This document shows, in pieces, positions 1-44,652 of a DNA stretch of 44,652 nucleotides. Below the pieces are notes generated by a model that was not told the origin of the DNA, did not search any database, and worked only from the letters and a program-made list of their open reading frames with translations. The translations under genes and the position numbers were made by a program. The stretch's first letter is position 1; each line of letters opens with the position of its first letter. This DNA comes from a virus (taxonomy: Duplodnaviria > Heunggongvirae > Uroviricota > Caudoviricetes): positions 1 to 44,652 of the IMG/VR virus record IMGVR_UViG_3300045988_039442; one strand, 5' to 3'.

Positions 1-55
1 AGTGACGTCTATGTGGTGCGCGCGTTTTGGGGGTTGGTATGAAATATATATATAT
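1..55. repeat. Terminal direct repeat, left copy (identical to 44598-44652)
   Basis: Exact 55-bp identity between the two window ends; 55 is a common assembler k-mer, so this may be a circularisation overlap. Confidence 0.9.
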
Positions 56-896: not shown

Positions 897-903
897 AATT
901 TAC

Positions 904-935
904 TTGCACACTAAAATAGAATAGGCTACTATTCA
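904..935 (+). promoter_or_regulatory. Copy of the conserved promoter/operator element, rightward orientation
   Basis: TTGCACACTAAAATAGAATAGGCTACTATTCA closely resembles the 44040-44071 element; sits upstream of the gene at 964. Confidence 0.45.
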
Positions 936-963
936 TTTACACAAACGAGAGGAGAGACAGAAG

Positions 964-7815: not shown

Positions 7816-9285
7816 ATGTTAACTATGAACGGTCAGAATCAGGGTGTTAAGACAAAACACCGGGAATGGCTGCATCACTTCGATAAATGGCAGAAGGTGC
7901 GACACGCGCTGGAAGGCGACCTTATCCGCTATCTTCGCAACGTCGGGAAGAACGAGCCAGACCCAACCTACGCAGCGCAGCGCCAGGAAGAATACGAGAA
8001 CGGCGCTATCTGCTACAACTTCACTAAACGTACCCTGGCGGGGATGGTCGGTAGCGTCATGCGCAAAGACCCCGAACAGATTATTCCGCCTGAGATGGAG
8101 TACCTGCTACGTAATGCTGACGGTTCCGGTGTCGGGCTGTGGCAGCACGCGCAGGATACGCTGATGGAGATTGACTCGGTAGGTCGTGGCGGGTTGCTGG
8201 TTGATGCCCCAGAGACCGCCGCCGCGACGGCAGCCGAACAGAACGCAGGGTTATTAAACCCGGTCATCGCATTCTATACCGCAGAGAACATCATCAACTG
8301 GCGACTGACACGCGTAGGTTCAGTGAACCGTGTGACTATGGTCGTGCTGCGTGAGGCATGGGAATACTCAGAACCGGGTGCGGAGTTCGAAACCAAGTTT
8401 GGCGAGCAATACCGCGTCCTTGACCTGATTGACGGTCGCTACCGCCAGCGCATTTACCGCTTCGATGCCGAAGGCGGCGCTCAGGACGAAGTAATCGAAA
8501 TATTCCCGGAACTGGGCGAACAGTTGCGCGGTAAAATCCCATTTACGTTCATTGGTGCGAGCAACAACGATGCAACAATTGACGATGCACCTTTGCTGCC
8601 GTTGGCTGAGCTTAATATCGGGCATTTCCGTAACAGCGCAGACAATGAAGAGTCCAGCTTCGTGGTAGGCCAGCCTACTTTGTTCATTGCGCCGGGCGAG
8701 AACATGAGCATGGAACAGTGGAAAGAAGCCAACCCTCACGGCGTGCGTATGGGGTCGCGTTCAGGCCACAACATTGGTTACGGCGGCAATGCGTTTCTGG
8801 TTCAGGCGGGGGAGAACAACCTCGCTAAGCAGAACATGCTGGATAAAGAGAATCAGGCTATCCAGATTGGTGCGCAGCTTATCACCCCGACGCAGCAAAT
8901 CACCGCTGAATCGGCCAGACTGCAACGCGGTGCGGATACGTCAGTTATGGCGACAATCGCGCGGAACGTAAGCATGGCGTACACCGATGCGTTGCGCTGG
9001 GTGGCTGCGATGCTAGGGCTGCGTGAAGGCACAGAGATTGAGTTCAAGCTGAATATGGAGTTCTTCTTGCAACCGATGACCGCCCATGACCGTGCGCAGT
9101 GGATGGCAGACATTAATGCCGGTTTGCTGCCCGCCACTGCTTACTATGCAGCATTGCGTAAGGCTGGCGTAACTGACTGGACGGACGAGGACATTCAGAA
9201 CGCAATCGAGGATGCACCACTGCCGTTAGGTGCTGTTACTCAGGTGGAGGGGGAGATTCCGCAGTCGGCACAGCAACAGGAGTAG
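7816..9285 (+). CDS. portal protein
   Basis: 489-aa protein directly after the terminase genes; RBS AAGAGGA before the ATG. Confidence 0.8.
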   Translation: MLTMNGQNQGVKTKHREWLHHFDKWQKVRHALEGDLIRYLRNVGKNEPDPTYAAQRQEEYENGAICYNFTKRTLAGMVGSVMRKDPEQIIPPEMEYLLRNADGSGVGLWQHAQDTLMEIDSVGRGGLLVDAPETAAATAAEQNAGLLNPVIAFYTAENIINWRLTRVGSVNRVTMVVLREAWEYSEPGAEFETKFGEQYRVLDLIDGRYRQRIYRFDAEGGAQDEVIEIFPELGEQLRGKIPFTFIGASNNDATIDDAPLLPLAELNIGHFRNSADNEESSFVVGQPTLFIAPGENMSMEQWKEANPHGVRMGSRSGHNIGYGGNAFLVQAGENNLAKQNMLDKENQAIQIGAQLITPTQQITAESARLQRGADTSVMATIARNVSMAYTDALRWVAAMLGLREGTEIEFKLNMEFFLQPMTAHDRAQWMADINAGLLPATAYYAALRKAGVTDWTDEDIQNAIEDAPLPLGAVTQVEGEIPQSAQQQE

Positions 9286-9317
9286 CGAAAAAGGCCCCGT
9301 TATGGGGCCTTAGTTTT
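9286..9317. terminator. bidirectional hairpin terminator between convergent portal and DpdA-like genes
   Basis: AAGGCCCC-GTTAT-GGGGCCTT with flanking A and T tracts. Confidence 0.65.
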
Positions 9318-10034
9318 AAGTAGCCATTCCTCTACTGTAGGGGGTTTAACCATCTCTATGGTATGCCTCATTATGGCAGTTCGATGCAGTTTGTCCGTTA
9401 TGTCAGGTAGTCTTGCCTTAGTTTTCGGCACATTTATAGCTACGTTTGTGCTGTCAGCGCTGTCGAAAGGGTAGCGGCTCAAGGCCCGCCCATCCAGCAT
9501 TCTAAGGCCGTGGAGTTTTACATCCAATTTCCTGTTTCTATAAACCGCATTAAATGCCTGGTCCATTCTTTTCCCCCATGACTTAGACCGTATGGCCCTG
9601 TGCGGTCCGCAGCAACCTATCGCTACCCGATTGAACCCACGGCACAGTTTTACCAGTCTTCTTATACTTTCATCGCTGTGCCACACCGGGACCGCCTTAG
9701 ACCTTAACCAATCGGGGACAGTTTCTATTAATGCGTCGTTCTCTTCCTCCGTGCCCTCTATAACGTCCGGTATTATGAACCACTCAATACGACTGAACCA
9801 CTCTCCGACAAAATCATAATATCCTGCCCAGTGGGCGCTCCAGTCTATGTTGTCCGGTGCTTTCTTCCACGTCGAAAAAGCTCCGTTGTCCAACACTAAT
9901 TTACATCTCGTGGCGGCTATCTTTCGTATTTGATCGGGGCGGGCGTATGATACCAGAGCACCACCACCTCGGTACAATGCTTCTATAAGCTCATCCCCAC
10001 CCCAAATAGGGCCTCCGTGGTAATGCACTGTCAT
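9300..10034 (-). CDS. tRNA-guanine transglycosylase/DpdA-like protein (candidate 7-deazaguanine DNA base-exchange enzyme)
   Basis: LVLDNGAFS segment resembles the TGT catalytic-Asp region (LTDSGGFQ) and HGLRMLD a second Asp region; no CxCxxC zinc motif seen; assigned from memory of the fold, not by search. Confidence 0.4.
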   Translation of the reverse strand: MTVHYHGGPIWGGDELIEALYRGGGALVSYARPDQIRKIAATRCKLVLDNGAFSTWKKAPDNIDWSAHWAGYYDFVGEWFSRIEWFIIPDVIEGTEEENDALIETVPDWLRSKAVPVWHSDESIRRLVKLCRGFNRVAIGCCGPHRAIRSKSWGKRMDQAFNAVYRNRKLDVKLHGLRMLDGRALSRYPFDSADSTNVAINVPKTKARLPDITDKLHRTAIMRHTIEMVKPPTVEEWLLKTKAP

Positions 10035-10495
10035 TTAATTTTCCTCAGCAAGAACGACCATAAAGCTCCGCCAAAAACCTTAGCCACGAATTGGCCCAGT
10101 ACGACTAGCGGCATGAAGGCCCCGAAAGCTATTAGTGGGAAAATAAAAGAGTCCACCGCCGAGGCCGCTGTATTACTTACGTTTGACTTAACCAACCACT
10201 TTTTATTGATCAGTGCCTGGTAGACAACGGCATCTATGGCGGCTGCAAAAGCGAAGGCAACAACGCTTGCCATAGCAATCTTGCCGGTTGCCGGGTTTAT
10301 GGAGAAACTTATAATGCCAGTTACTAGTATCAGTATGAATATTTTTTGTACACCAATCCTCTCGTGCAACTTATCTCTTATTACGAAATCAAGCCCAATA
10401 AGTAGAAAGGCGTTTACCGGTGTCGCCCACGGACCAAACACAGTTACCGAAAAGTTAGCGGCGCATATCGCCGCTACGTAAATTGCATACATCAT
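10031..10495 (-). CDS. small polytopic membrane protein, possibly YhhQ/COG1738-type queuosine-precursor transporter
   Basis: Four to five TM helices; stop overlaps the start of the downstream DpdA-like gene (ATGA); SNVSNTAASAVDSFIFPLIAF resembles a DUF165 motif as I recall it. Confidence 0.35.
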   Translation of the reverse strand: MMYAIYVAAICAANFSVTVFGPWATPVNAFLLIGLDFVIRDKLHERIGVQKIFILILVTGIISFSINPATGKIAMASVVAFAFAAAIDAVVYQALINKKWLVKSNVSNTAASAVDSFIFPLIAFGAFMPLVVLGQFVAKVFGGALWSFLLRKIK

Positions 10496-10658: not shown

Positions 10659-10682
10659 TTTTCGTCTCCTGTTTAAGTTAAC

Positions 10683-10714
10683 TGAATAGTACCCTATTAT
10701 ATTGGTGTCTGCAA
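10683..10714 (-). promoter_or_regulatory. conserved promoter/operator element, copy 1, leftward
   Basis: TGAATAGTACCCTATTATATTGGTGTCTGCAA; minus strand reads TTGCAGAC ... TATAAT; contains the AATAG-N4-CTATT palindrome. Confidence 0.55.
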
Positions 10715-12463: not shown

Positions 12464-12487
12464 TTTTCATCTCCTGTTTAAGTTAAA

Positions 12488-12519
12488 TGAATAGTACCCT
12501 ATTATATTGGTGTCTGCAA
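12488..12519 (-). promoter_or_regulatory. conserved promoter/operator element, copy 2, leftward
   Basis: Identical over 32 bp to 10683-10714. Confidence 0.55.
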
Positions 12520-12585
12520 ACTATTTATTTACCTATTCCGGTTATTCCACCCAATTGTAAATGTTGGAATAAACTATTCGAATAG

Positions 12586-12729
12586 TTGACTTTTCACTAA
12601 AAATGTGCTAAGCTCCACCTGAGCTTGTGAAGTATGAACAAGCGACCGCGGTGCGGCAGGAGAACGGAGCGGTGCGTTAGCACTGAGTGTAGTGTCGCTG
12701 CCCGCATTCGGAAGGGCCATACTCTATTG
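12586..12729 (+). ncRNA. conserved structured non-coding element, paralogue A
   Basis: About 80% identical to 43731-43873; own TTGACT-N17-TAAGCT promoter; indels not in multiples of 3; hairpins with compensatory changes. Confidence 0.45.
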
Positions 12730-12792
12730 CTTGTGTAAAAAGTAGCTGGTTTACTGAGATTACGCCGTTTCTATGTTTAAATGATAAGGACT

Positions 12793-12820
12793 AGCGCCCC
12801 GCTTTAAGGCGGGGCTTTAC
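12793..12820 (+). terminator. rho-independent terminator
   Basis: GCCCCGC-TTTAAG-GCGGGGC followed by TTTACTT. Confidence 0.55.
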
Positions 12821-12839
12821 TTATCGAGAAAGGAGAAAC

Positions 12840-13226
12840 ATGAATCTTAAAGCAACTGTCGTAGCGGGAGCATGTTTCATCATCCTGGCTTACGCACACG
12901 GCATCTACCAGTACCGCAGCGGCTGGAACGAAGGCCGCGCTAATCTTGTTTCTCAGCAACAGCAGAAAGCACAGGTTGAGCTGGCGAAGAAAACACAACG
13001 GCAGCAGCAGGATGAATCAAAGGCTGCAGCCGCTGACAACGAAGGCAAGACGAAATCAGAGGTGATCACCCGTGAAGTCGTTAAGTACATTAAAACGCCT
13101 GGCCGCAGCGTGTGCACTTTCGACGATGCTCGCGTCCTGCTCAAGTCCCGCGCCGTCGCCAACGCCAACTCCATCCCCGGATATGACGATGATGCAGCCG
13201 CCGTGCAAACTGGCGCAGCCAAGTAG
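12840..13226 (+). CDS. i-spanin (Rz-like)
   Basis: N-terminal TM segment, Gln-rich coiled-coil periplasmic region; RBS AGGAGAAAC; contains an overlapping lipoprotein gene in another frame. Confidence 0.6.
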   Translation: MNLKATVVAGACFIILAYAHGIYQYRSGWNEGRANLVSQQQQKAQVELAKKTQRQQQDESKAAAADNEGKTKSEVITREVVKYIKTPGRSVCTFDDARVLLKSRAVANANSIPGYDDDAAAVQTGAAK

Positions 13227-13335
13227 CGACGCTGATGAGGATTTAGCTATTGACGTCCAGAACGCTGAATGCGTACGGCAACTGAGGCTGAAAGTGTTCA
13301 TGTTGCAGGATTACGTGAGGAATATTCTGGAATAG
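13072..13335 (+). CDS. o-spanin (Rz1-like lipoprotein) overlapping Rz in another frame
   Basis: GTG start after GAGGTGA; signal peptide with lipobox LASC; Pro-rich mature region. Confidence 0.55.
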   Translation: MKSLSTLKRLAAACALSTMLASCSSPAPSPTPTPSPDMTMMQPPCKLAQPSSDADEDLAIDVQNAECVRQLRLKVFMLQDYVRNILE

Positions 13336-13417
13336 TTGCCTTGCATATTGGAATAATTTATTCTTGACATGTAAATCCGGGTGGCCCGGATTCCAACGTC
13401 CAGGGGACATACTGACT

Positions 13418-15171: not shown

Positions 15172-15187
15172 GGTTAAGATATAATCG

Positions 15188-15214
15188 AGAGGGACTTCGG
15201 TCCCTCTTTTCATT
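15188..15214 (+). terminator. rho-independent terminator after the capsid gene
   Basis: AGAGGGAC-TTCG-GTCCCTCT followed by TTTT. Confidence 0.7.
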
Positions 15215-19566: not shown

Positions 19567-19596
19567 AACTAAGGCCCCTTTCGGGGCCTTTTCTTA
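19566..19596. terminator. bidirectional hairpin terminator
   Basis: AAGGCCCC-TTTC-GGGGCCTT followed by TTCTT. Confidence 0.65.
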
Positions 19597-22333: not shown

Positions 22334-22358
22334 AATTATTTCCTCAGTAAGTTACAGG

Positions 22359-22390
22359 TGAATAGTACCCTATTATATTGGGGTGTGCAA
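22359..22390 (-). promoter_or_regulatory. conserved promoter/operator element, copy 3, leftward
   Basis: TGAATAGTACCCTATTATATTGGGGTGTGCAA; drives the four-gene leftward operon 22333 to 19760. Confidence 0.55.
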
Positions 22391-22497
22391 GTAGTGTGCT
22401 AGAATAAGTTTGCGCCTAGTGTCGCACACGAAAAGCGGGTGGTTCCCGTCTGGCGCATTTTCCTTAACCTGTAACCTCTTAACCAAAGGATCAAAGA

Positions 22498-43153: not shown

Positions 43154-43444
43154 TTATCTATTGGCCAGGCATTCCATCAAATGTGCGTACTTACGATAAT
43201 AATCTACGACAATCTCATCGCCGAAATACTGATAAACGTACGATAAGTGGTCAGAGACATCAATGGAGGCCGACATTGTGCTGAGTCTTCGGAGACTAAT
43301 CAACTGCAATTCTTCTGTAACGCAAAACGGCGAATAAGAGTCCAGCTTACAAGAAACGTTAAAACACAACGCGTACTTGCCTTGCACTAAATAGACCATA
43401 TAAGAATTGTCGTTCTCTTTATCATGGAATATTACACCTTTCAT
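43154..43444 (-). CDS. hypothetical protein
   Basis: ORF track entry; ATGA overlap with the upstream gene. Confidence 0.45.
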   Translation of the reverse strand: MKGVIFHDKENDNSYMVYLVQGKYALCFNVSCKLDSYSPFCVTEELQLISLRRLSTMSASIDVSDHLSYVYQYFGDEIVVDYYRKYAHLMECLANR

Positions 43445-43623
43445 TTCACGTTCTCCTTAATCCACGCTTCAACTTTATTACGGTCAAATGTACCCGGTAA
43501 ACGGCGGCCCATAACCTTAATACAGCAATCCGGGAATTTACCACTGCGCAACCAGTTATTAATTGTCTGACGGGTCACCCCGATACGTTCTGCTACTTCA
43601 TTCTGGGTCATGTAATGCTGCAT
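43441..43623 (-). CDS. small HTH DNA-binding protein (AlpA/excisionase-like HTH_17), first gene of the replication block
   Basis: MTQNEVAERIGVTRQTINNWL motif; ATG at 43623 preceded by the conserved AGGAGA leader. Confidence 0.55.
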   Translation of the reverse strand: MQHYMTQNEVAERIGVTRQTINNWLRSGKFPDCCIKVMGRRLPGTFDRNKVEAWIKENVK

Positions 43624-43730
43624 TTTTATATCTCCTGTTTGTTTGGTGAAGCTGAGTATAGGATAGCGGGAATGTAAAAGCAACCAAAACGCCACACAAA
43701 GTTACTAAGATACAAAAGATGCTACTGGTA

Positions 43731-43873
43731 TTGACTTTTACTTAAAAATATGCTAAGCTTCACTGAGCTTGTGAGATATCGCAAGCGACCGCGGAGCGGC
43801 AGGGAACGCAACGCGTGCCATTAGGCACTTGAGTGTAGTTCCGCTGGCGCTTTCGGAAGGGCCAAAGTCTATT
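43731..43873 (+). ncRNA. conserved structured non-coding element, paralogue B
   Basis: About 80% identical to 12586-12729, including the TTGACT-N17-TAAGCT promoter. Confidence 0.45.
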
Positions 43874-44039
43874 GTTAATCCCGCCTAAATACCCAAGTCA
43901 CTGATAATTAAAAGTTTCTATAATTGCCGTAAACAAGGTAGAGAGTACTTCACTCCGCTGGGGTGGGCTAACGCCCACCCACTGCGTTGCGTACTCTTTT
44001 AAGAAACGAAAGAATCACAACGGCAACGTAACTATTCTC

Positions 44040-44071
44040 TTGCACACCCCAATATAATAGGATACTATTCA
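44040..44071 (+). promoter_or_regulatory. conserved promoter/operator element, rightward copy driving the early block
   Basis: TTGCACACCCCAATATAATAGGATACTATTCA is the reverse complement of the 22359-22390 element; about 30 bp upstream of the RBS at 44091. Confidence 0.55.
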
Positions 44072-44102
44072 CTTATCGAAACGAGACAGAGGAGTGAGGG
44101 TT

Positions 44103-44177
44103 ATGTTTAAGAAGGGTCAGTTGGTGAAAACGAAACGCGGCGGACATTACGCAATAATTAAACGAGTTTCGAATTAA
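44103..44177 (+). CDS. very small early ORF (24 aa); the same frame continues protein-like after an in-frame TAA to 44270
   Basis: RBS GGAGTGAGGG before the ATG; MFKKGQLVKTKRGG N-terminus; TAA at 44175-44177. Confidence 0.3.
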   Translation: MFKKGQLVKTKRGGHYAIIKRVSN

Positions 44178-44287
44178 GTTCCTGGGTTATGCTATCTCGC
44201 GCATCCAGAATGGTGTTTCGATTTATGGGTCCGGGAGGACGGGATAAAACTCATCGGCAACAATTTTAAATTCAAAGGGGCGAAGTG

Positions 44288-44581
44288 ATGGAAGAATTAC
44301 CGCAATGCGAACGCCAGTTCATTAGTGGGTTTATCCCGGTAAATAATTTAAACATTTCTGATTTGCTGGACCTGAGAGAAAATGGTGCTTTGTGGGTGTG
44401 TAACGCCCGGGATGTAACAAAGGCCAGGGTGTGGAATTTTAGTCTAATGCGCCGCCCTAATAAGTCAGGGGCTGGTGCGGTGACGATGGATTTGTTACAG
44501 CGCAAAGGTAAGCTGTTTATGCGAACGGCATCGAATCATGATGCCAGTGCCGACGACTCTGAGGGAGGTTGCCGTGGATAA
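44288..44581 (+). CDS. hypothetical early protein
   Basis: ORF track 44285..44581; ATG at 44288 after AAAGGGG; ends 17 bp before the terminal repeat. Confidence 0.5.
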   Translation: MEELPQCERQFISGFIPVNNLNISDLLDLRENGALWVCNARDVTKARVWNFSLMRRPNKSGAGAVTMDLLQRKGKLFMRTASNHDASADDSEGGCRG

Positions 44582-44597
44582 GTTTATTTTAATTGTC

Positions 44598-44652
44598 AGT
44601 GACGTCTATGTGGTGCGCGCGTTTTGGGGGTTGGTATGAAATATATATATAT
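44598..44652. repeat. Terminal direct repeat, right copy (identical to 1-55)
   Basis: Exact match to the window start; the window ends inside the repeat. Confidence 0.9.

What the first reader, a model, noticed from the sequence alone, without database searches (positions are those of the whole stretch)
12586..12729. Paralogous ~144-nt non-coding element A with its own promoter and covarying hairpins
The regions 12586-12729 and 43731-43873 are about 80% identical, and each starts with TTGACT-N17-TAAGCT. They differ by indels of 1-2 nt, so no reading frame is conserved. Two hairpins are maintained by compatible changes: AAGCUC..GAGCUU in A versus AAGCUU..GAGCUU in B (a G-U pair), and GUGC-GUUA-GCAC in A versus GUGCC-AUUA-GGCAC in B. 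Blocks such as CAAGCGACCGCGG, GAGTGTAGT and TTCGGAAGGGCCA are invariant. Copy A is followed by a terminator at 12793-12820. This looks like a small structured RNA, or an RNA/protein-binding site, present in two copies; I do not recognise the family.
Basis: seen in the sequence. Interest (0 to 1): 0.7.

Follow-up and report, generated by a model that had tools for sequence, protein, structure and literature searches.

The report
Two-copy structured phage leader RNA
The two similar stretches are real copies of a previously undescribed folded RNA made from the first ~113 bases of two host-type promoters in a Kagunavirus; nearly all E. coli and Salmonella phages of this subfamily carry it in front of their spanin and head genes, and its job is unknown, most plausibly control of transcripts passing the terminator that follows it.

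Summary
A (12586-12729) and B (43731-43874) are 82% identical (E 1e-28) and are the only such pair in the window. Each starts at a TTGACT-N17-TGnTAAGCT promoter.

The transcribed part (A 12621-12733, B 43765-43878) folds into a 5'-terminal hairpin and a 66-68-nt irregular hairpin, followed by an invariant tail. On 30 distinct homologues, 97.9% of pair cells are standard pairs against 82.5% in shuffles. Sixteen of 28 pairs show compensatory changes, and there are at least 7 different apical stems. No reading frame is conserved.

There is no Rfam match, no similarity to HK022 put, and no copy in 5,426 E. coli genomes.

Copy A is nearly universal in Guernseyvirinae (about 449 of about 460 phage records), always upstream of Rz/Rz1. 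Copy B is an accessory cassette in roughly a quarter of Kagunaviruses. Hairpins have been exchanged between the two loci.

Function is inferred, not shown. My best guess (0.35) is a cis-acting leader RNA that lets RNA polymerase pass the terminator that follows it, as put does. The rivals are a discrete non-coding RNA (0.3) and an RNase III or stability element (0.2).

The parts
12534..12585 (+). TATTCC / GGAATAA repeats directly upstream of the -35 of promoter A. They are candidate regulator sites and are not part of the A/B duplication.
   Evidence: Motif positions. The same motif recurs at 13319-13364 before the scaffold gene and upstream of the homologous promoter in Jersey, phiEap-2 and TS33.
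12586..12614 (+). Promoter A: -35 TTGACT (12586-12591), 17-nt spacer, TG at 12606-12607, -10 TAAGCT (12609-12614). The predicted start is G12621 or A12622.
   Evidence: Sequence. The hexamers and spacing are kept while the spacer varies: TAGACT-N17-TGnTACGCT in Jersey-type phages and TGGACT-N17-TGnTAACCT in phiEap-2.
12621..12733 (+). Element A, the transcribed structured domain (the covariance-model match).
   Evidence: cmsearch 126.5 bits, E 1e-30.
12623..12643 (+). P1, the 5'-terminal hairpin GCUUGU-N9-ACAAGC, starting 2 nt from the predicted start.
   Evidence: Structure given to the model. Four of the 6 pairs show changes on both sides. Jersey-type phages replace it with ACGCU-UUC-AGCGU.
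12646..12711 (+). P2, a 66-nt irregular hairpin. From base to tip: CCG/CGG, a bulged C, tandem G.U, helix NGCG(G), CAG/CUG, a 5-bp helix, an asymmetric internal loop (5' GGAGC / 3' GAGUGUA), and an apical 5-bp hairpin with a tetraloop (12671-12684).
   Evidence: All 22 variants fold on their own into this architecture. RNAalifold recovers the basal helix.
12712..12733 (+). Conserved unpaired tail AAGGGCCAUACUCUAUUGCUUG. UUCGGAAGG, which spans the base of P2 and this tail, is invariant in the family.
   Evidence: TTCGGAAGG occurs only at 12707 and 43852 in the window.
12750..12786 (+). Block 2, a second conserved block between element and terminator. It contains a promoter-like or -10-like arrangement, TTTACT-N16-TATGTT (12750-12777).
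   Evidence: A homologous block lies at locus A of Jersey-type phages and at locus B of phages that lack element B.
12796..12824 (+). Intrinsic-terminator-like hairpin GCCCCGC-UUUAA-GGCGGGGC followed by UUUACUUAU. The Rz ribosome-binding site follows at 12829 and the ATG at 12840.
   Evidence: The stem is kept by compensatory changes in relatives (GCCCUGC/GGCAGGGC; GCCCGAC/GUCGGGC).
12840..13335 (+). Rz-like i-spanin (12840-13226), with the overlapping or embedded o-spanin reading frame running to 13335. These are the first genes downstream of element A.
   Evidence: PHROG phrog_2536, E 2e-55. Annotation of relatives.
43731..43759 (+). Promoter B: -35 TTGACT (43731-43736), 17-nt spacer, TG at 43751-43752, -10 TAAGCT (43754-43759). 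It diverges from the HTH gene at 43441-43623(-).
43765..43878 (+). Element B: P1 43767-43786, P2 43789-43856, apical hairpin 43815-43828, then the tail.
   Evidence: cmsearch 90 bits, E 6e-21. The fold has z = -3.7.
43897..43936 (+). Block 2 of copy B (GTCACT-N16-TATAAT, then TGCCGTAAAC).
43941..44001 (+). Compound long-stem hairpin (about 22 pairs; outer GAGAGUAC/GUACUCUU) followed by Us. This is the likely terminator of transcript B.
   Evidence: MFE and centroid fold. Conserved in the other B-locus copies.
44039..44075 (+). Separate conserved promoter (a family of 5 in the window) that serves the first gene after locus B (ATG 44103).
   Evidence: Repeat family found. Sequence.

Best explanation
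**What is shown.** The window is a complete Kagunavirus genome (Guernseyvirinae). Two paralogous host-type (sigma-70, extended -10) promoters each transcribe, from their first base, a roughly 113-nt RNA domain. The domain has three parts:
- a 5'-terminal clamp hairpin (P1);
- a long irregular hairpin (P2), whose helices vary freely in sequence but stay paired;
- invariant nucleotides at the base of P2 and in the tail (ACCGCGG ... UUCGGAAGGGCC).

A second conserved block and a terminator-like hairpin follow each copy.

**What is inferred.** The domain acts in cis on the transcription complex or transcript that carries it. As the nascent RNA folds next to the RNA exit channel, its invariant junction and tail nucleotides are held in place by the variable helices. 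They engage a conserved host component, either RNA polymerase itself or an elongation factor. The polymerase can then pass the terminator placed between the element and the genes. At locus A these are Rz/Rz1 and the head genes beyond them, including a further terminator after the capsid gene at 15187-15208. At locus B they are the long rightward unit that wraps to the window start, with a terminator at 631-652. Transcripts that stop at the terminator are released as a stable RNA of about 200 nt. This is how HK022 put RNA works. The element is not a member of that family.
For: **Structure**
- 97.9% of pair cells are standard pairs, against 82.5% in shuffles and 31-47% with slid partners.
- 16 of 28 pairs have changes on both sides; 0 of 500 shuffles reach the observed covariation score.
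- Every variant folds alone into the same architecture.
- G.U pairs on the + strand fit an RNA of the promoter's polarity.

**Position**
- The element starts at +1 of a promoter whose hexamers are conserved and whose spacer varies.
- It always points towards the downstream genes.
- At locus A a good terminator hairpin lies between it and the Rz ribosome-binding site, with no room for a promoter, so read-through must occur.

**Copy arrangement**
- The two diverged copies, with compensatory changes, head two rightward units. This is the putL/putR and nutL/nutR layout (put described in PMC9378689).

**Recognition pattern**
- Apical loops are free to vary (GUAA, GUUA, GUCA, AUUA, CUCG, CACA, CUCA).
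- Junction and tail nucleotides are invariant across phages of E. coli, Salmonella and Raoultella. This suits a conserved host target better than a co-evolving phage protein.
- P2 hairpins have been swapped between loci A and B, so the two copies are functionally interchangeable.

**No dedicated protein found**
- No N- or Q-type antiterminator is annotated in a close relative or found in the ORFs I scanned.
Against: - There is no sequence or model similarity to put, and the domain is about 40 nt longer.
- The hairpin before the Rz site has a poor U tract in Jersey-type phages, none in phiEap-2/TS33, and is absent in Serratia phage Tsm2. A leader terminator is therefore not a conserved partner.
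- Copy B is followed by a very long-stem terminator and then by a separate promoter for the next gene. Read-through is not needed there. Long stems were reported to resist processive antitermination in another system (PMC10325885).
- Salmonella phage SLMP1 lacks 41 nt of P2 yet was isolated as a phage.
- Other rightward units (10702-, 13364-, 22498-) have no copy.
- No transcript data exist for any of this.
Confidence: 0.35

Rival explanations
1. Each copy is a small non-coding RNA gene of about 200-230 nt, running from promoter to terminator. The product acts in trans, by sequestering a host or phage protein or by pairing with mRNAs through its conserved unpaired tail or block 2. Read-through at locus A is only leak, as with lambda 6S RNA or StxS made from PR'.
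For: - Both copies have their own promoter and a terminator-like hairpin 65-85 nt after the conserved domain.
- A 5'-terminal hairpin plus a 3' hairpin is the design of a stable RNA.
- The genes after B have their own promoter, and B's terminator has a very long stem.
- Locus B is a cassette. Phages without element B carry a different noncoding insert of about 250 nt with the same block 2 and terminator.
- B is present in only about a quarter of Kagunaviruses: 232 places in 189 records.
- Precedent for a leader-derived small RNA: PMC7547250 (listed; abstract only read).
Against: - At locus A the Rz ribosome-binding site follows the hairpin by about 14 nt with no promoter in between, unless block 2 is one.
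- Distant relatives lack a terminator there.
- The terminators of A and B are unrelated, so they are not part of the conserved RNA.
- The U tails are short, at 3-4 U.
- No target complementarity was identified.
- There is no copy or mimic in E. coli genomes.
Confidence: 0.3
2. P2 is an RNase III-type processing and stability signal in the leader, comparable to the hairpin signals of T7 early and late mRNAs or the lambda N leader. Cleavage would define the mature 5' end or half-life of the downstream mRNA, or the 3' end of the leader RNA.
For: - P2 is a hairpin of about 22-25 bp with a lower stem, an asymmetric internal loop and a short upper stem. Its sequence drifts freely as long as pairing is kept.
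- Paralogous copies lie in leaders.
- Loss of most of P2 is tolerated in SLMP1. This fits a non-essential processing site; my own recollection is that RNase III is dispensable for T7 growth.
- In phiEap-2 the homologous upper hairpin (CGUAAC...GUUACG with a GUAA loop) sits in a different place relative to the invariant motif, so it behaves as a module.
Against: - It does not explain why the unpaired ACCGCGG/UUCGGAAGGGCC nucleotides and the internal-loop motif are the most conserved parts.
- It does not explain why the promoter is duplicated together with the element.
- The upper stem, at 5-6 bp, is shorter than in the classical T7 signals.
- Nothing here tests cleavage.
Confidence: 0.2
3. The conservation is at the DNA level, or the RNA primes DNA synthesis. 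The unit would be a transcription-activated replication origin (promoter, G-rich structured transcript, AT-rich block 2), as in T7 or T4 origins, or a protein-binding DNA site.
For: - The transcript is G-rich: 40 G against 25 C in A.
- An AT-rich block follows it.
- Locus B lies in the divergent region next to the helicase-primase module.
- The phage has a T7-like replisome by annotation.
Against: - G.U pairs and strand-specific covariation argue for a folded + strand RNA, not duplex DNA.
- Locus A sits in the middle of the head genes.
- Copy B is dispensable in most relatives.
- No iterons or primase sites were identified.
Confidence: 0.05
4. It encodes a small protein. Several GenBank records annotate 36-63-aa hypothetical proteins here.
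For: - Open frames of 30-38 codons exist on both strands in every copy, as expected for a GC-rich stretch.
- Annotators called CDSs here.
Against: - 1-2-nt indels shift every frame between variants.
- Copy B and the Jersey-type copies lack the ATG.
- Substitutions follow base pairing, not codons.
Confidence: 0.01

Closest known systems
HK022 put RNAs (putL, putR)
   Same: - Two diverged paralogous copies at the heads of two transcription units, each upstream of terminators.
- putL starts just downstream of its sigma-70 promoter.
- Two stem-loops with bulges.
- put acts without a phage protein (PMC9378689).
   Different: - There is no sequence or covariance-model similarity.
- The domain is about 113 nt, against about 70 nt for put.
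- The host phage is virulent, not lambdoid.
- One copy is accessory and is followed by a long-stem terminator and a fresh promoter.
- Antitermination is untested.
Lambda-type late leader (PR' - qut - 6S RNA - tR'; StxS in Stx phages)
   Same: A constitutive-looking promoter, a noncoding transcript of about 200 nt, then a terminator directly upstream of lysis or late genes. The leader RNA could also be a small RNA, as with StxS (PMC7547250, abstract).
   Different: - In the Q system the signals are DNA sites at the promoter, not a covarying RNA fold.
- No Q homologue is annotated or was found.
- Here the conserved part is the RNA structure.
Lambda/P22 nut sites (boxA + boxB with N)
   Same: Paired left and right copies in leaders; an RNA hairpin element read on the nascent transcript.
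   Different: - There is no boxA-like sequence at either locus.
- The apical loop is not conserved, whereas boxB recognition is loop-specific.
- The element is 3-4 times larger.
- No N-like protein was identified.
T7-type RNase III processing hairpins
   Same: Irregular hairpin with a lower stem, an asymmetric internal loop and an upper stem; paralogous copies in phage leaders.
   Different: Invariant single-stranded flanks, a short upper stem and only two copies. Cleavage is untested.

Membership tests
HK022 put RNA | Sequence and secondary-structure similarity to putL/putR | tested here: not met
   I located putL and putR in HK022 (L039). Model R1 gives no hit in L039. blastn-short of putL/putR against both loci gives only 6-8-nt chance words.
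HK022 put RNA | Lies in the transcript downstream of an early sigma-70 promoter and upstream of terminators, in two copies | tested here: met
HK022 put RNA | Protein-independent antitermination and anti-pausing through the RNA polymerase beta' zinc-binding domain | not testable with these tools
   This needs in vitro transcription, or plating on rpoC zinc-binding-domain mutants.
Lambda nut / N antitermination | boxA consensus next to a boxB hairpin with a conserved loop | tested here: not met
   No boxA-like match within 12500-12900 or 43700-44110. Apical loops vary: GUAA, GUUA, AUUA, CUCG, CACA.
Lambda nut / N antitermination | Phage-encoded N-like protein | tested here: inconclusive
   None is annotated in Bas70, and none appears among the 20 ORFs scanned. 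Many small ORFs were not scanned, and N proteins are hard to detect.
Lambda Q / qut late leader | Q-family antiterminator gene | tested here: inconclusive
   Not annotated in the relative and not among the Pfam-scanned ORFs. The scan was not exhaustive.
Lambda Q / qut late leader | Promoter followed within about 200 nt by a terminator upstream of late or lysis genes | tested here: met
   Start about 12621, terminator 12796-12824, Rz at 12840.
Any Rfam 15 family | Covariance-model match at or near the gathering score | tested here: not met
   Zero hits at gathering in the whole window. At E<=10 only chance hits of 12-18 bits appear, none over the element core.
RNase III processing signal (T7 R1.1 type) | Hairpin of about two helical turns with an asymmetric internal loop | tested here: met
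   This is a resemblance of shape only.
RNase III processing signal (T7 R1.1 type) | Site-specific cleavage by RNase III | not testable with these tools
   This needs an enzyme assay or comparison in an rnc host.
Hfq-type terminator-ended small RNA | Discrete transcript ending in a hairpin plus a long U tail | tested here: inconclusive
   Hairpins are present but the U tails are only 3-4 U. There are no transcript data.

The most novel reading that the evidence does not exclude
The element is a second, unrelated family of RNA-only processive antiterminators. On this reading a nascent RNA fold, with no phage protein, makes E. coli or Salmonella RNA polymerase resistant to terminators. Virulent Guernseyvirinae would use it to separate terminator-sensitive transcription (the five-copy TTGCA...TACTAT promoter family) from terminator-resistant transcription (promoters A and B).
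Probability: 0.25. Interest if true: 0.8.

Novelty: new variant of a known kind. Interest (0 to 1): 0.6.

Why it matters
Guernseyvirinae (Jersey-like and K1G-like phages) are among the most often isolated Salmonella and E. coli phages. They are used in therapy and biocontrol cocktails, yet nothing is known about how they time gene expression with the host polymerase alone.

A covariation-supported RNA domain sits at +1 of a conserved promoter in about 450 sequenced genomes. Its invariant junction nucleotides point to a host target. This gives a concrete and easily tested handle on that question.

If it modifies RNA polymerase as put does, it would be only the second such RNA family in phages and a compact part for synthetic terminator bypass. 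If it is a released non-coding RNA, locus B is an exchangeable RNA cassette in the early region, which would also be new for this group.

Tried and rejected
- **Rfam.** Scans of the whole window at gathering threshold and of both loci at E<=10 found nothing.
- **put homology.** Rejected by the model search and by BLAST.
- **boxA/nut.** Rejected.
- **Protein coding.** Rejected.
- **Host mimic or prophage copy.** No match in 5,426 complete E. coli genomes. Among representative genomes of 100,044 bacterial and archaeal species there were only two hits, both phage contamination; the rest were chance.
- **Metagenome scan.** It gave 39 true copies, all on roughly 44-kb Kagunavirus-like contigs or fragments, and no new context.
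- **Tail pairing with the P1 loop (CAUAC with GUAUG).** Changes in either partner are not compensated, and copy B and the Jersey-type copies lack it, so I dropped it.
- **Classical attenuator (tail or block 2 pairing with a terminator arm).** Only 4-bp matches, inconsistent between clades, so I dropped it.
- **Leader peptide after the SD-like GGAAGGG.** The UUG in CUAUUG is lost in f2SE, L059 and phiEap-2, so I dropped it.
- **Block 2 as a general late promoter.** It occurs only at these two loci in the window.
- **TCGCAA and GATTCGC motifs.** No enrichment in the window.
- **Distant relatives.** The model does not reach Tsm2, phiEap-2, TS33 or VLCpiS11a, or the non-subfamily phage K21lambda1 (best hit 12 bits). 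By eye, phiEap-2/TS33 and Tsm2 carry rearranged versions with shared motifs, but MFE folds of those were not informative.
- **Literature.** I found no paper on transcripts or RNAs of this subfamily. The one Kagunavirus RNA-seq paper reports gene-level classes only.

Full report
**What the window is.** The window is a complete genome of about 44.6 kb. Its two ends overlap by 55 bp. It belongs to a Kagunavirus-like member of the Guernseyvirinae. The region around copy A is 93% identical to E. coli phages SCS92, Bas70-76 and relatives, and 460 phage records match it.

A (12586-12729) and B (43731-43874) are 81.8% identical over 148 columns (E about 1e-28). They are the only such pair in the window. 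Both begin at TTGACT-N17-TAAGCT with a TG one base upstream of the -10 hexamer, which makes an extended -10.
- The same promoter frame with other spacer sequences is found at the homologous place in Jersey-type Salmonella phages (TAGACT-N17-TGnTACGCT) and in Enterobacter phage phiEap-2 (TGGACT-N17-TGnTAACCT).
- I therefore take it to be a real sigma-70 promoter with a start near G12621 in A and G43765/A43766 in B. This is an inference from sequence, not a mapped start.

**The fold.** The transcribed part folds as follows.
- P1 is a hairpin that begins 2 nt from the start (A 12623-12643; B 43767-43786).
- P2 is a 66-68-nt irregular hairpin (A 12646-12711; B 43789-43856). From base to tip it has CCG/CGG, a bulged C, two G.U pairs, a 4-5-bp helix, CAG/CUG, a 5-bp helix, an asymmetric internal loop (5' GGAGC, 3' GAGUGUA) and an apical 5-6-bp hairpin with a tetraloop.
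- A conserved unpaired tail, AAGGGCCAnAnUCUAUUG, follows.
- Its AAGCUC/GAGCUU 'hairpin' overlaps the -10 hexamer and the start, so it cannot be in the RNA.

**Homologues.** I collected copies from IMG/VR, GenBank phages and metagenomes. A covariance model built on six Kagunavirus copies (R1, 28 pairs) gave these results.
- It finds exactly two copies in the window, at 126.5 and 90 bits.
- It finds one copy in a whole Jersey-type genome and none in the HK022 put region.
- On 30 distinct sequences, 97.9% of pair cells are standard pairs, against 82.5% in column shuffles and 31-47% when partners are slid.
- Sixteen of 28 pairs carry changes on both sides, and no shuffle in 500 reaches the observed covariation score.
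- That alignment is fitted to the model. However, each of 22 variants also folds alone into the same architecture.

The variation is plain to the eye.
- Apical stems: GGGAC/GUCCU, CGGAC/GUCCG, GGUGC/GCACU, GUGCC/GGCAC, CACGU/ACGUG, GGGCGC/GCGCCC and GGGCGU/ACGCCC.
- The first pair of the inner basal helix is C-G, U-A or A-U.
- P1 is GCUUGU/ACAAGC, GCUUGUGA/UCGCAAGC or ACGCU/AGCGU.
- G.U pairs on the + strand fit an RNA read in the promoter's direction.
- No reading frame survives the 1-2-nt indels between variants.

**Distribution.**
- The Kagunavirus type matches 189 phage records, 181 of them at full length.
- The Jersey type matches 268.
- Together that is about 449 of the roughly 460 records of the group. 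The copy always lies between the Hoc-like decoration gene and Rz/Rz1.
- The second copy, at locus B, exists in only some Kagunaviruses: 232 places in 189 records.
- In phages without it, such as Bas70 and fmb-p1, the same locus holds a different noncoding insert of about 250 nt. It sits between the same flanks and ends with the same block 2 and a terminator.
- Hairpins move between loci. The P2 of window copy A is identical to a locus-B copy on a metagenome contig. On that contig, A and B share a rare P1-loop variant.
- More distant subfamily members (phiEap-2, Hafnia TS33, Serratia Tsm2) have rearranged leaders with recognisable pieces: GUAAC...GUUAC with a GUAA loop, ACCGCGCGGAAGGGCC, and CAUUCGGAAAG. 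They fall below the model's reach.
- Klebsiella phage VLCpiS11a has a different leader.
- Outside this phage group there is nothing: none in 5,426 E. coli genomes, and only two contaminating phage fragments among representative genomes of 100,044 bacterial and archaeal species.

**Surroundings.**
- After each copy comes block 2, a promoter-like or -10-like arrangement at A 12750-12786 and B 43897-43936. It occurs nowhere else in the window.
- A hairpin follows block 2. At A it is a good terminator (12796-12815, then UUUACUUAU). The Rz ribosome-binding site follows about 14 nt after the stem.
- At B it is a compound stem of about 22 pairs (43941-44001). A separate promoter follows, belonging to a five-copy family, and then the next gene (ATG 44103).
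- Upstream of promoter A, but not of B, are GGAATAA/TTATTCC repeats. They recur before the scaffold gene and in distant relatives.
- Further + strand terminators lie at 15187-15208 (after the capsid gene), 19571-19590, 631-652 and 9291-9311.

**Function.** Nothing here measures function. I considered four mechanisms.

*1. Cis-acting leader that makes RNA polymerase pass terminators, as HK022 put does.*
- For:
  - the start at +1 of a host promoter;
  - a terminator between element A and needed genes;
  - the two-copy layout at the heads of two rightward units;
  - invariant junction and tail nucleotides with free apical loops, across phages of several host genera;
  - no N or Q protein found.
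- Against:
  - no similarity to put;
  - the leader hairpin is weak or absent as a terminator in Jersey-type and distant relatives;
  - copy B precedes a long-stem terminator and a fresh promoter;
  - SLMP1 has a 41-nt deletion inside P2;
  - other rightward units lack a copy.

*2. A discrete non-coding RNA of about 200 nt acting in trans.*
- For: a promoter plus a terminator at both loci, stabilising end hairpins, and the cassette nature and accessory status of B.
- Against: the need for read-through at A, unrelated terminators at A and B, short U tails, and no identified target.

*3. An RNase III-type processing or stability hairpin.*
- For: the shape of P2, its free sequence drift, its modular placement, and the tolerated deletion.
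- Against: it leaves the invariant unpaired nucleotides unexplained.

*4. A DNA-level or origin function.* This is unlikely given the strand-specific covariation.

The first three are not exclusive. A leader that is partly terminated can also be a released RNA, as with lambda 6S RNA and StxS. I put 0.35 on the cis elongation-control reading, 0.30 on a trans-acting RNA, 0.20 on processing or stability, and the rest on other options.

**Comparison with what is known.** It works most like put or a lambda-type late leader in layout. It fails the membership tests for put (no similarity) and nut (no boxA, loop not conserved) and matches no Rfam family.

I found no paper describing transcripts or RNAs of this subfamily. 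I therefore class it as a new variant of a known kind, a phage leader or regulatory RNA, and not as a member of any described family.

Noticed in passing
window 1-55 and 44598-44652: The two ends of the window are identical over 55 bp. The window is therefore a circularly closed complete genome, and the unit headed by copy B continues at the window start.
   Followed up: yes
window 903-950(+), 44039-44075(+), 10679-10714(-), 12484-12519(-), 22358-22391(-): A five-copy family of about 36 nt, TTGCAnACACC(C)AATATAATAGGrTACTATTCA. It looks like the phage's standard sigma-70 promoter (TTGCAn-N17-TACTAT), each copy about 30 nt upstream of a ribosome-binding site.
   Followed up: partly
window 12534-12585 and 13319-13370: GGAATAA/TTATTCC repeats and GAATA-N3-4-TATTC inverted repeats abut the -35 of promoter A. 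They also abut a TTGACA before the scaffold gene. The same motif is upstream of the homologous promoter in Jersey, phiEap-2 and Hafnia TS33. They are candidate sites for a conserved phage regulator.
   Followed up: partly
window 12750-12786 and 43897-43936; L058 24868-24925; L040 about 8375-8425 (-): Block 2 (GATTnCGC..CCGT..TAnnAT) plus a terminator is a module shared by loci A and B. It is kept at locus B even in phages whose upstream noncoding insert is unrelated to the element. Its role (promoter, pause site or RNA site) is unexplained.
   Followed up: partly
L089/L090 (metagenome contig QZLR01000080.1) versus window 12646-12711: The P2 hairpin of window copy A is identical to a locus-B copy in another phage. 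Within that phage, A and B share a rare P1-loop variant. This is evidence of exchange or gene conversion between the two loci.
   Followed up: yes
L045 543-600 (Salmonella phage SLMP1): A natural 41-nt deletion removes the inner part of P2 and keeps ACCGCGGUGCGGACGCAUUCGGAAGGGCC. It is either a viable deletion or an assembly error.
   Followed up: no
window 44103-44288: The first gene after locus B has an in-frame stop at codon 25 (44175-44177). The homologue in fmb-p1 is 67 aa, and similarity continues after the stop.
   Followed up: no
window 9300-10495 (-): A queuine tRNA-ribosyltransferase-like gene and a Vut_1/YhhQ-like transporter gene lie on the opposite strand inside the head-gene region. 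Together they look like a 7-deazaguanine modification module.
   Followed up: no
L059 2136-2249; L060 411-509: Two 'bacterial' assemblies carry the element on short contigs: a Bacillota MAG and a 738-bp Taishania scaffold. This is most simply Guernseyvirinae phage contamination.
   Followed up: partly
L055 583-875 (Klebsiella phage VLCpiS11a): The homologous intergenic region lacks the element. Instead it carries about six TTGCGAG/CTCGCAA repeats, including the perfect palindrome GACTCGCAAAATTTTGCGAGTC.
   Followed up: no
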